NCBI GenBank assembly: GCA_009914755.4
Contig: CP086569.2
Location: forward strand, 4,448,001-4,512,000
Origin: the human T2T-CHM13v2.0 reference genome, Homo sapiens
Length of the DNA: 64,000 bases
Reading direction: 5' to 3'
Position 1 is the first letter of the stretch. Each line of letters opens with the position of its first letter. A program made the position numbers and the translations under genes. The notes below the pieces were generated by a model, which saw nothing but the letters and a program-made list of their open reading frames with translations, made no database searches and had not been told where the DNA came from. Shown here piece by piece: positions 60,056-63,000 of the stretch.

Positions 60056-63000
60056 GGGGGAGCAGCCAAGATGGCCAAATAGAAACAGCTCTGCTCTCTG
60101 GCTCCCACCAAAAAGGATGAAAACAGTGAGTGAATTCTGCATCTTCAATTGAGGTATCAAGTTTATCACACTGGGACAGACTAGGCAGTTGGTATGACCC
60201 ATGGAGAGCGAGGAAAAGCAGGGTGGAGTGATGGCCCACCTGGGAGCTGCACAGGGCAAAGGGGGCTCCCTCCCCAAGCCAAGGAATACAGTAAGGGATC
60301 GTGCTGCCTCTCCCTGAAAAGCACTCTTTTATATGCCTGAAAAATTTTTATTTTTCCTTAGCTTATGAAGCTTAGTTTGGCCAGATATAAAATTCCAGGT
60401 TGGAAACTCTTTTCTTTAAGATGTTGCATATTGGCCCCCAATCTCTTCTGGCTTGTAGGGATTCTGCTGAAAGGTCTGCTCTTAGTCTGATGGGCTTTCC
60501 TTTATAACTAACCTGGCCCTTCTTTCTAGCTGCCCTTCAGTGGTGGGAGGTGCTCAGGTGAATAGGGTCTGGAGTGGACCCCCAATAAACCACAGCAGCA
60601 CTACGGAAGAGGGACCTGACTGATAAAAGCAAAACAAACAGAAAGCAACAACATCAATGAAAAAGATCCTACAAAAACCCCATCCAAAGGTCAACAGCCT
60701 CAAAGATCAAAGATAGATAAACCCATGAAAATGAGAAAGAATGGCAAGCTGGATGAACAGTCAAGATCCATTGTTGTGCTGTATTCAGGAGACCCATCTC
60801 ACGTGCAAAGACACACATAGGCTTAAAATAAAAGGATGGAGGAAAATTTACCAAGCAAATGGAAAAGATAAAAAAAGGGGTTGCAATCCTGGATTCTGAC
60901 AAAACAGACTTTAAACCAAGATCAAAATACAAAGATAAAAAAAAAAAAAAGAAAGGTGTTATGTAATGGTAAAAGGATCAACTCAATAAGAAGAGCTAAC
61001 TATCCTAAATACATACGTATTCAATTTAGGAGCACTGAGATTCATAAAACAAGTTCTTAGAGGCCCACAGAGAGACTAAGACTACCACACAATAATATTG
61101 GGAGAATTTAACACCCCACTGTCAATATTACACAGATCATTGAGACAGAAAATTAACAAAGATATCTTGTACTTGAATTCAGCTCTGAATCAAGTGGACC
61201 TGATAGATATCTACAGAACTCTCTACCCCAAAACAACAGAATATACATTCTTCTTGGAGCCACATGGCACTTACTCTACAACTGATCAAATAATTGGAAG
61301 TAAATCACTCCTCAGCAAATGCAAAATAACTGAAATATTAACAAATGGTGTCTTAGACCACTGCACAATCTAATTAGAACTCAAGATTAAGAAACTCACT
61401 CAAGACCACAAAACTACATGGAAATTGGACAACCTCCTTCTGAAGGTCTTCTGGGTAAATAATGAAATTAAAGACAAAATCAAGAAGTTCTTTGAAACCA
61501 ATGAAAACAAAGAGACAGCATACCAGAATCTCTAGGAGGCAGCTGAAGCAGAATTAAGAGGGAAATTTATAACACTAAATGACCACATCAAAAAGCTAGA
61601 AACATCTCAAATCAACACCCTAACATCACAACTAATGAAACTAGAGAAACAAAAGCAAATAAATCCCCAAGCTAGCAGAAGACAAGAAATAACCAAGCTC
61701 AGAGTGGAACTGAAGGAGATAGAGACACAAAAATCTAATGAATCCAGGAGCTCTTTTTTTGGAAAAAAAAAATAATAAAATAGATAGGCCTGTAGCTAGA
61801 CTAATAAAGAAAAAAGAATGAAAAATCAAAAAAGACACAATAAAAAATGATAAAGGGGATATCAACACTGACCCTACAGAAATACAAACAACCATCAGAG
61901 AATACTATAAACACCTCTATGCAAATAAACTAGAAAATCTAGAATAAATTGATGAATTCCTGGACACATACACCCTCCAAAGATGGAACCAGGAAGAAGT
62001 TGAATCCCTGAATAAATCAATAACAAGTTCTGAAATTGAGGCAGTAACAAATAGCCTACAAAAAAAATAAATAAATAAAACAATAAAAACACCTCAGGAC
62101 CAGATGGATTTAAGGCTAAATTCTACCAGAAGTACAAAGAGGAGCTGATATTCCTTTTTCTGAAAATATTCCAAACAATTGAAAAGGAGGGACTCCTCAC
62201 TAACTCATTCTATGAGGCCAGCATCATACTGATACCAAAACCTGGCAGAGATACAATAATATCAATAACAACAACAAAAACTTCAAGCCAATATATCCCT
62301 GTTGAATATTGATGCAAACATTCTCAATAAAATACTGGCAAACCAAATACAAAAGCACATCAAAAAGCTTCTTCACCATGATCAAGTTGGCTTCATCCCT
62401 GGGATGAAAGGCTGGTTCAACATATGCAAATCAATAAACATAATTCATTACATAAACAGATCTAAAGACAAAACCCACATGATTATCTCAATAGATGCAG
62501 AAAAGGCCCTTGATAAAATTCAACATCCCTTCATGTTAAAAATTCTCAATAAACTAGGTATTGAAGGAACATACATTAAAATAATATGAGCCATTTATGA
62601 CAAACCCATAGCCTAAATCATACTGAATTGGCAAAAGCTGGAAGCACTTTCCTTGAAAACTGGCTGTAAACAAGGATGCCCTCCCTTACCACTCCTATTC
62701 AACGCAGTATTGAAAGTTCTGGCCAGGGCAATCAGGCAACAGAAGAAAATAACGGGTATTCAAATAAGAAGAGAGGAAGTCAAATTGTCTTTGTTTGCAG
62801 ATGACATTATCCTATATCTAGAAAACCCCATCGTCTCAGCCCAAAAGGTATTTATGCTGAGAAGAAACTTCAGCAAAGTCTCAGGAAACAAAATCAATGT
62901 GCAAAAGTCATAAGCCTTCCTATACACCAACAAGAGGCAAACAGAGACCCAAATCATGAATGAACTCCCATTCCCAATTGCTACAAAGAGAATACCTAGG

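What the first reader, a model, noticed from the sequence alone, without database searches (positions are those of the whole stretch)
60056..60740. Rearranged L1 5' region: 5'UTR, then an inverted ORF1 C-terminal fragment, then 5'UTR-end and ORF1 ATG fused straight into ORF2
After a genuine L1 5' terminus (60056) and ~250 bp of 5'UTR, the next ~270 bp (60308-60575) is ORF1 C-terminal sequence in antisense orientation. From ~60575 the sequence resembles the distal 5'UTR and ORF1 start region (cctcaaagatcaaagatagataaacccatgaaaatgag), which runs directly into ORF2 N-terminal codons (..WMNSQDP.LCCIQETHLTCKDTHRLKIKGW..). This L1 copy therefore lacks essentially all of ORF1 in sense orientation but carries an inverted ORF1 fragment upstream. 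Either a complex template-switching event during retrotransposition or an inherited rearranged source element would explain it. The element also landed precisely in the A-tail of the older L1M at 58471-60055.
Basis: seen in the sequence. Interest (0 to 1): 0.5.

Follow-up and report, generated by a model that had tools for sequence, protein, structure and literature searches.

The report
Rearranged old human L1 5' region
An old human LINE-1 copy has a backwards 207-base piece of its first gene in place of the middle of its leader, and the rest of that gene is missing; this looks like a one-off accident of LINE-1 insertion, not a new kind of element.

Summary
On the + strand the order is:
- 60056-60330: L1 5'UTR from nt 1 to about nt 275.
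- 60331-60537: ORF1 codons 231-300 in antisense.
- 60534/8-60730: the last ~195 nt of the 5'UTR.
- 60731-60742: ORF1 codons 1-4.
- 60743-64000: ORF2 from about codon 27, collinear to the window end.

About 723 nt of 5'UTR interior and about 1,144 nt (ORF1 nt 13 to ORF2 nt 76) are missing. Each junction shows 3-6 nt of microhomology and no filler.

Real L1 copies of the same 5'UTR type have an ordinary 723-nt interior with no ORF1 similarity. None of 113 assessable L1 5'UTR contigs (89 distinct) shares any junction. So this is neither the subfamily's normal 5'UTR nor a large family.

The layout [inverted ORF1][sense distal 5'UTR][sense ORF2...] matches twin priming with a template jump ("3' switching"), which has been described for somatic L1 insertions. 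The simplest reading is that such an insertion landed in the 5'UTR of an existing 5'-intact L1. I could not separate this from a single-element multi-switch event, a later replicative rearrangement, or a retrocopy of a rearranged source. The deciding 3' end lies beyond the window. Interest is low.

The parts
58471..60055 (+). Older 5'-truncated L1 (3' part of ORF2, 3'UTR and A-rich tail at about 60026-60055). Context only: the rearranged element begins directly after its tail.
   Evidence: blastn: 63311-63999 matches 58475-59157 at 68%. The A-rich end was read directly.
60056..60330 (+). L1 5'UTR nt 1 to about 275, sense, starting GGGGGAGCAGCCAAGATGGCC.
   Evidence: Aligns over 272-275 nt to real L1 5' ends of the same type (L061 locus 77%, L075 76%, L114 82%), and the alignment ends at 60330.
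60331..60537 (-). Antisense fragment of ORF1, codons 231-300 (end of the RRM and first part of the C-terminal domain).
   Evidence: PDB ORF1p E about 1e-15. Pfam Tnp_22_dsRBD 29.4 bits against a cut-off of 22.2. 80-85% DNA identity to ORF1 of many real L1 copies, always in the opposite orientation to their 5'UTR. Codon numbering from L004.
60534..60730 (+). Last ~195 nt of the L1 5'UTR, sense. It overlaps the ORF1 fragment by the CCT(T) microhomology.
   Evidence: Aligns from 60534 to the L061-locus 5'UTR at 79%, to L059/L025/L043 at 80-82%, and to the in-window L1 at 12368-12437.
60731..60742 (+). ORF1 codons 1-4 (ATGAGAAAGAAT). An extra upstream in-frame ATG lies at 60725.
   Evidence: Compare ATGAGGAAGAAT at the ORF1 start of the in-window L1; ORF list.
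60743..64000 (+). ORF2 from about codon 27 onward, decayed by stops and frameshifts, collinear to the window end. The first ~26 residues of the endonuclease are missing.
   Evidence: PDB 1vyb/8sxt from residue 27, E 2.5e-76. Collinear with the in-window L1 at 13464-17328. ORF2 nt numbering.
60324..60334 (.). Junction A (5'UTR nt ~275 to antisense ORF1 nt ~898), with microhomology GC(T/A)TTT.
   Evidence: Parental contexts from real copies are 5'UTR ...CATGCTTTT|TCCATGG and reverse-complement ORF1 ...CAGCATTTGCTTGTCTG.
60534..60540 (.). Junction B (antisense ORF1 nt ~693 to the distal 5'UTR), with microhomology CCT(T/C).
   Evidence: Parental contexts are reverse-complement ORF1 ...GGCTGCCCTT|AACATT and 5'UTR ...GACACCTCC|AGGTAGGGGAGG.
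60738..60743 (.). Junction C (ORF1 nt 12 to ORF2 nt ~77), with microhomology AGA(A/G)T. About 1,144 nt are deleted.
   Evidence: Contexts in the in-window L1 are ATGAGGAAGAAT|CAGC and ACACAGAGT|GGCAATCTGG.

Best explanation
This is a one-off structural product of L1 integration, not a functional unit.

Proposed sequence of events (inferred):
1. A new L1 RNA was reverse-transcribed from two primers (twin priming). The poly(T) primer copied the RNA from the tail up to ORF2 nt ~77.
2. That cDNA then jumped, at the microhomology AGA(A/G)T, to ORF1 nt 12. It copied a further ~205 nt into the distal 5'UTR.
3. The second primer was the 3' end of the other target strand, ending ...CTCTTTT. It annealed to the A-rich site at ORF1 nt ~899 and copied back to nt 693. 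This gave the antisense ORF1 block.
4. The two cDNA ends were joined at CCT/AGG.

In this model the DNA to the left of the inverted block is target DNA. So the first 275 nt would be the 5'UTR of a pre-existing 5'-intact L1 of similar type, itself sitting in the A-tail of the older L1. The new ~4.5-kb insertion would have split that element.

What is shown: the segment map, the orientations, the missing lengths and the junction microhomologies. What is inferred: the order of events and the separate origin of the first 275 nt.
For: - Segment map and orientations come from real references.
- The inverted block (ORF1 nt 693-898) lies just 5', in L1 coordinates, of where sense sequence resumes (ORF2 nt ~77). 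The gap is about 257 nt. This is the defining geometry of twin priming.
- A non-inverted L1 piece from a distant part of the RNA sits at the inversion breakpoint. This pattern is described as 'twin priming & 3' switching' in 3 somatic insertions (10.1101/2024.08.27.596794).
- All three junctions have 3-6 nt microhomology and no filler.
- 14 nt upstream of junction A the sequence reads CTG|AAAAGCACTCTTTT. That is a TTTT|C site on the other strand at a plausible target-site-duplication distance (my reading).
- Same-type L1 copies have a normal 723-nt 5'UTR interior with no ORF1 similarity.
- None of 113 assessable L1 5'UTR contigs shares a junction.
Against: - The model needs the new insertion to hit an L1 5'UTR in the same orientation. 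By my estimate, not measured here, such targets are about 0.1% of the genome.
- The TTTT|C site is not the preferred TTTT|A, and an A-run that close would occur by chance in roughly 10% of cases.
- The two 5'UTR pieces are equally distant from the common reference locus (77% and 79-80%). Nothing shows that they come from different elements.
- The 3' end, poly(A) and flanking duplication lie beyond position 64000 and could not be retrieved.
- A 257-nt gap at the inversion is much larger than the reported median of 14.5 bp.
Confidence: 0.45

Rival explanations
1. A later DNA-level rearrangement of a normal full-length L1. Replicative template switching (FoSTeS/MMBIR type) or microhomology-mediated repair deleted 723 nt and 1,144 nt and copied 207 nt of the element's own ORF1 in reverse.
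For: All three junctions have 3-6 nt microhomology and no filler. All templates lie within 2 kb of one element. No target coincidence is needed.
Against: It needs three switches. It gives no reason for the inverted block to sit just upstream, in L1 coordinates, of the point where sense ORF2 resumes, which twin priming predicts. No orthologous unrearranged allele could be examined.
Confidence: 0.2
2. A single full-length L1 insertion in which the polymerase switched templates three times during cDNA or second-strand synthesis: cDNA to RNA, back to cDNA, then a jump. On this reading 60056-64000 is one element and one event.
For: The 5' end is a complete L1 terminus abutting an A-rich target. The left and right 5'UTR pieces belong to the same 5'UTR type and are equally diverged from the reference locus. 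Junction microhomologies are present.
Against: A sense segment left of a top-strand-primed antisense segment cannot arise from ordinary twin priming. It requires an undocumented switch from cDNA to RNA template and back. No such class is among those named in the passages I read of the long-read survey of about 4,200 somatic insertions, where 81 insertions stayed unclassified.
Confidence: 0.15
3. A retrocopy of an already rearranged source element. This would be a non-autonomous, ORF1-less L1 transcribed from the retained first 275 nt of the 5'UTR and mobilised in trans.
For: The copy starts exactly at L1 nt 1 and keeps the start of the promoter region. Nothing in the window excludes it.
Against: - No second copy with any of the three junctions was found. 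The protein search returned only the same locus.
- Exact junction scans of three collections found nothing.
- 0 of 113 L1 5'UTR contigs share junctions A/B and 0 of 105 share junction C.
- The element lacks ORF1 and ORF2p residues 1 to about 26, which include the catalytic N14 (residue identity from established knowledge of the L1 endonuclease). It would therefore depend on inefficient trans-complementation.
- The ORF1 ATG is out of frame with ORF2.
Confidence: 0.1
4. The region is simply the ordinary 5'UTR of this L1 subfamily, and the ORF1 resemblance is spurious or an ancient recruited segment.
Against: The core 207 nt matches ORF1 at 80-85% DNA identity and at E about 1e-15 at protein level. 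Same-type L1 copies carry 723 nt of unrelated 5'UTR there instead. The fragment is no more diverged from ORF1 than the element's ORF2 is from ORF2, so it was not evolving for long as a 5'UTR.
Confidence: 0.01

Closest known systems
Twin-priming L1 insertions (5' inversion with an internal deletion), first described by Ostertag and Kazazian in 2001 (cited from memory), and the 'twin priming & 3' switching' variant in preprint 10.1101/2024.08.27.596794
   Same: The antisense block lies immediately 5', in L1 coordinates, of the sense block. There is a gap at the inversion and microhomology at the joints. A non-inverted piece from a distant, more 5' part of the L1 RNA sits at the inversion breakpoint.
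   Different: The inverted block here is preceded by 275 nt of sense L1 5'UTR rather than unique target DNA. The internal gap is about 257 nt against a reported median of 14.5 bp. This is an ancient germline copy, not a somatic tumour insertion. The target-site duplication is unverified.
Nested L1-in-L1 insertions
   Same: A newer L1 would interrupt an older one in the same orientation. An endonuclease-like site lies at a plausible distance from the junction.
   Different: The interrupted element's continuation, which would prove nesting, lies outside the window.
SpIREs (spliced integrated retrotransposed L1 elements; Larson et al. 2018, cited from memory)
   Same: These are L1 copies with an intact 5' terminus but missing 5'UTR interior and/or ORF1 sequence.
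   Different: The deleted segments here have no GT...AG boundaries (and my reading). An antisense block is present, which splicing cannot produce.
HAL1 and other non-autonomous L1 deletion derivatives
   Same: One of the two L1 ORFs is lost.
   Different: HAL1 keeps ORF1 and loses ORF2, and it is a multi-copy family. Here ORF1 is the lost gene and no second copy was found.
Complex deletion plus inverted templated insertion from replicative template switching (FoSTeS/MMBIR)
   Same: Several microhomology junctions, a short inverted templated segment and flanking deletions, all within 2 kb.
   Different: That mechanism does not predict the twin-priming coordinate relationship, and no pre-rearrangement allele is known.

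Membership tests
LINE-1 element | 5'UTR beginning at the canonical terminus (GGGGGAG..CCAAGATGGCC) | tested here: met
   60056 aligns from nt 1 of real L1 5' ends.
LINE-1 element | Sense ORF1 between the 5'UTR and ORF2 | tested here: not met
   Only codons 1-4 are in sense. Codons 231-300 are present in antisense, upstream.
LINE-1 element | ORF2 with endonuclease and reverse transcriptase | tested here: met
   ORF2p is matched from residue 27 (E 2.5e-76) and is collinear to 64000. The first ~26 residues are absent and the frame is decayed.
LINE-1 element | 3' poly(A) and target-site duplication | not testable with these tools
   The 3' end lies beyond the window. Contig look-ups failed.
Twin-priming insertion | The inverted 5' segment derives from L1 sequence just upstream of the sense 3' segment | tested here: met
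   ORF1 nt 693-898 is inverted and sense sequence resumes at ORF2 nt ~77. The gap is about 257 nt.
Twin-priming insertion | Microhomology at the inversion junction | tested here: met
   CCT(T/C) at junction B and GC(T/A)TTT at junction A.
Twin-priming insertion | The inverted segment abuts target DNA, and the whole insertion is flanked by a target-site duplication | tested here: inconclusive
   It abuts 275 nt of L1 5'UTR, which may or may not be target DNA. A candidate 14-nt duplication, AAAAGCACTCTTTT, can be read, but its 3' copy is not visible.
Twin priming & 3' switching (10.1101/2024.08.27.596794) | [quoted passage not shown] | tested here: met
   60534-60742 (distal 5'UTR plus ORF1 codons 1-4) lies between the inverted ORF1 and ORF2.
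SpIRE (spliced L1 retrocopy) | Deleted segments bounded by GT...AG splice sites | tested here: not met
   The deleted ORF1-ORF2 segment starts CAGC... and ends ...AGAGT. The 5'UTR interior starts TCCATGG.
Subfamily-specific (recruited) 5'UTR | The same arrangement in other copies of the same 5'UTR type | tested here: not met
   The L061 locus and other copies have a 723-nt ordinary interior. 0 of 113 contigs have ORF1-like DNA upstream of the motif.
Propagated non-autonomous L1 derivative | Several copies at different loci sharing the junctions | tested here: inconclusive
   None was found, but the sample only bounds such a family at below roughly 3% of 5'UTR-bearing L1s. No whole-genome search was possible.

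The most novel reading that the evidence does not exclude
The rearranged unit would be a transcribed, trans-mobilised, ORF1-less L1 derivative. Its leader would carry antisense ORF1 sequence, so its RNA could pair with ORF1 mRNA. This locus would be one of a small family of retrocopies.
Probability: 0.07. Interest if true: 0.5.

Novelty: new member of a known kind. Interest (0 to 1): 0.2.

Why it matters
It matters little beyond annotation. It would be an ancient, germline-fixed example of a multi-template L1 integration product, twin priming plus a template jump. In the one survey I read, that pattern is reported for three somatic tumour insertions. It also shows how such products can look like a single 'rearranged full-length' element when the target is another L1. 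For genome annotation, 60056-64000 should not be counted as a full-length or potentially coding L1. It has no sense ORF1 beyond its first four codons and lacks the first ~26 residues of the endonuclease.

Tried and rejected
They placed the junctions 15-25 nt off and suggested a 17-nt 'filler'. Real copies later showed that filler to be ordinary 5'UTR, so the memory-based boundaries were dropped.
2. A search for a template for the supposed filler found nothing. This is moot after point 1.
3. A protein-database search with the 87-aa antisense ORF spanning junction C returned 10 hits. Only P0001 covers the junction, and it is the same locus inside a chimeric contig. That database holds too few human L1 ORFs to test for paralogs.
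4. Exact-ORF look-ups for six window ORFs, aimed at independent contigs or flanking DNA, all failed.
5. Exact junction scans of metagenome, prokaryote-genome and viral contigs gave zero hits.
6. I compared how close the left and right 5'UTR pieces are to reference copies, to see whether they come from different elements. The result was not informative. L114, the apparent best relative, proved to be a chimeric assembly.
7. The key paper on primate L1 5'UTR evolution (Khan et al. 2006) is not held. Literature searches found no described L1 subfamily with antisense ORF1 in its 5'UTR.
8. Splicing was rejected because there are no GT...AG boundaries and an antisense block is present.

Full report
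**What the window is.** The DNA is human. A 509-nt contig from a human oral metagenome (L001) is 100% identical to 60559-60802 and then continues as a different, younger L1, so it is a chimeric short-read assembly. This is independent read-level support for the junction between the ORF1 start and ORF2.

**First check of the observation.**
- The minus-strand translation of the region contains RAARKKGQVSYKGKPIRLRADLSAESLQARRDWGPICNILKK. This matches the human L1 ORF1p structures 2ldy, 2ykp and 2yko at E about 1e-15.
- It also matches Pfam Tnp_22_dsRBD above its curated cut-off, and the end of Transposase_22 just below its cut-off.
- The plus strand from 60741 matches L1 ORF2p endonuclease from residue 27 at E 2.5e-76.
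- ORF2 then continues collinearly to the window end when compared with another L1 in the same window (13464-17328).
- In that in-window control the order is normal. The end of the 5'UTR lies at 12368-12437, sense ORF1 around 13146-13213, and the start of ORF2 at 13464. About 1 kb separates the two points that are fused in the focal element.

**Getting real references.** I scanned public metagenome and prokaryote-genome contigs for a 19-mer of the distal L1 5'UTR (AYAGGGTCTGGAGTGGACC). This returned 133 contigs of human contamination that carry L1 5' regions. Several belong to the same 5'UTR type as the focal element:
- one locus seen five times (L061, L099, L121, L035, L060);
- L075 and L022 for the left part;
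- L043, L025, L059 and L002 for the right part.

L114 looked like the closest relative but is a chimeric assembly.

**Revised map**:
- 60056-60330 is 5'UTR nt 1 to about 275, in sense. The alignment to real copies runs to 60330, not 60307.
- 60331-60537 is antisense ORF1. It corresponds to nt 693-898, codons 231-300, of an intact 338-codon ORF1 in L004.
- 60534/8-60730 is the last ~195 nt of the 5'UTR. The stretch I had called filler (CAGTGGTGGGAGGTGCT) matches CCAGGTAGGGGAGGGACC of normal copies.
- 60731-60742 is ORF1 codons 1-4 (ATGAGAAAGAAT; the in-window control reads ATGAGGAAGAAT).
- 60743 onward is ORF2 from about codon 27.

In normal copies of this type the two 5'UTR pieces are separated by about 723 nt. 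That interior shows no similarity to ORF1 on either strand. The second deletion removes about 1,144 nt, from ORF1 nt 13 to ORF2 nt 76.

**The junctions.** I compared each junction with the two parental contexts taken from real copies. Each shows short microhomology and no inserted bases:
- Junction A: GC(T/A)TTT.
- Junction B: CCT(T/C).
- Junction C: AGA(A/G)T.

None of the deleted segments has GT...AG ends, and splicing cannot create an antisense block. So this is not a spliced retrocopy.

**Is it a family or a subfamily trait?** Of the motif-bearing contigs, 113 have at least 200 nt upstream of the motif, and these form 89 distinct sequences at 97% clustering. None has ORF1-like DNA within 260 nt upstream. 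None of the 105 contigs with enough downstream sequence has the ORF2 start within 420 nt. Three further searches found no second copy:
- exact junction scans of three collections;
- a protein search with the ORF spanning junction C;
- exact-ORF look-ups.

So the arrangement is not the normal 5'UTR of this L1 type. A rearranged family larger than a few percent of 5'UTR-bearing L1s is excluded. A handful of copies would have escaped these searches.

The antisense fragment is 80-85% identical to ORF1 of other copies. That is no more diverged than the element's ORF2 is from ORF2. It therefore did not spend a long time evolving as leader sequence before this copy was fixed.

**Mechanism.** Read left to right, the part [antisense ORF1 898→693][sense distal 5'UTR plus ORF1 codons 1-4][sense ORF2 77→] has the geometry of twin priming. 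The antisense block lies just 5', in L1 coordinates, of where the sense strand resumes, with a gap of about 257 nt.

The extra sense piece at the inversion breakpoint comes from a far more 5' part of the RNA. A long-read survey of somatic L1 insertions calls this pattern 'twin priming & 3' switching' and reports three cases of it (10.1101/2024.08.27.596794). In that model the DNA to the left of the antisense block is the target strand that primed it.

The most economical reading is therefore that 60056-60330 is the start of a pre-existing 5'-intact L1 of similar type, into which a new L1 of about 4.5 kb inserted. Consistent with this, 14 nt before junction A the sequence reads CTG|AAAAGCACTCTTTT. 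This is a TTTT|C site on the opposite strand at a normal target-duplication distance. This is weak evidence, since an A-run that near would arise by chance in roughly one case in ten.

I put this explanation at 0.45.

**What I could not separate.** Three rivals remain:
- one element with three template switches during its own integration (0.15);
- a later replicative or microhomology-mediated rearrangement of a normal full-length L1 (0.2);
- a retrocopy of an already rearranged source (0.1).

The left and right 5'UTR pieces are equally distant from the common reference locus (77% against 79-80%). So nothing in the window shows whether they come from one element or two. The deciding evidence is the sequence just after the poly(A), about 1 kb beyond the window end, together with a whole-genome and cross-primate comparison. 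None of these was reachable with the tools.

**Coding state.** The canonical ORF1 ATG (60731) and the extra upstream ATG (60725) are out of frame with ORF2. ORF2 lacks its first ~26 residues. By established knowledge of the L1 endonuclease these include the catalytic N14. ORF2 is also broken by many stops. The copy is inert.

**Verdict.** The element is a decayed, rearranged L1 whose structure fits known by-products of L1 integration. It is a further member of a known kind and of low general interest.

Noticed in passing
L001 (ENA human oral metagenome contig, 509 nt), against window 60559-60802: The contig is 100% identical to the window for 244 nt and then continues as a different, younger L1 ORF2 at about 80% identity. 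It is human contamination assembled into a chimeric contig and annotated with a 94-aa 'protein' (P0001).
   Followed up: yes
L114 (metagenome contig, 1397 nt): This is another chimeric assembly. Its first ~150 nt come from a third L1 copy that is 91% identical to focal 60056-60155. From about nt 200 to 1250 it is essentially identical (97-100% per 100-nt window) to the L061 locus.
   Followed up: yes
L046 (metagenome contig), about 437-1344: In this L1 copy the ORF1 C-terminal block lies only ~110 nt after the end of the 5'UTR, instead of ~680 nt. That implies a ~570-nt internal ORF1 deletion or an assembly artefact.
   Followed up: no
window 12368-17600 (+): An older L1 with the normal order of 5'UTR end, ORF1 and ORF2, 75-78% identical to the focal ORF2. 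It served as the in-window control.
   Followed up: partly
window 44815-47046 (+): A younger L1 ORF2 remnant with long open stretches (298, 167 and 200 aa), 82% identical to the focal ORF2.
   Followed up: no
Genome-contig loci L122-L134: Thirteen contigs filed under bacterial or archaeal species genomes carry the 19-mer. Nine of them (for example under Bifidobacterium, Campylobacter, Streptomyces and Arthrobacter) also match the human L1 5' region in blastn, so they are human contamination in prokaryote assemblies.
   Followed up: partly
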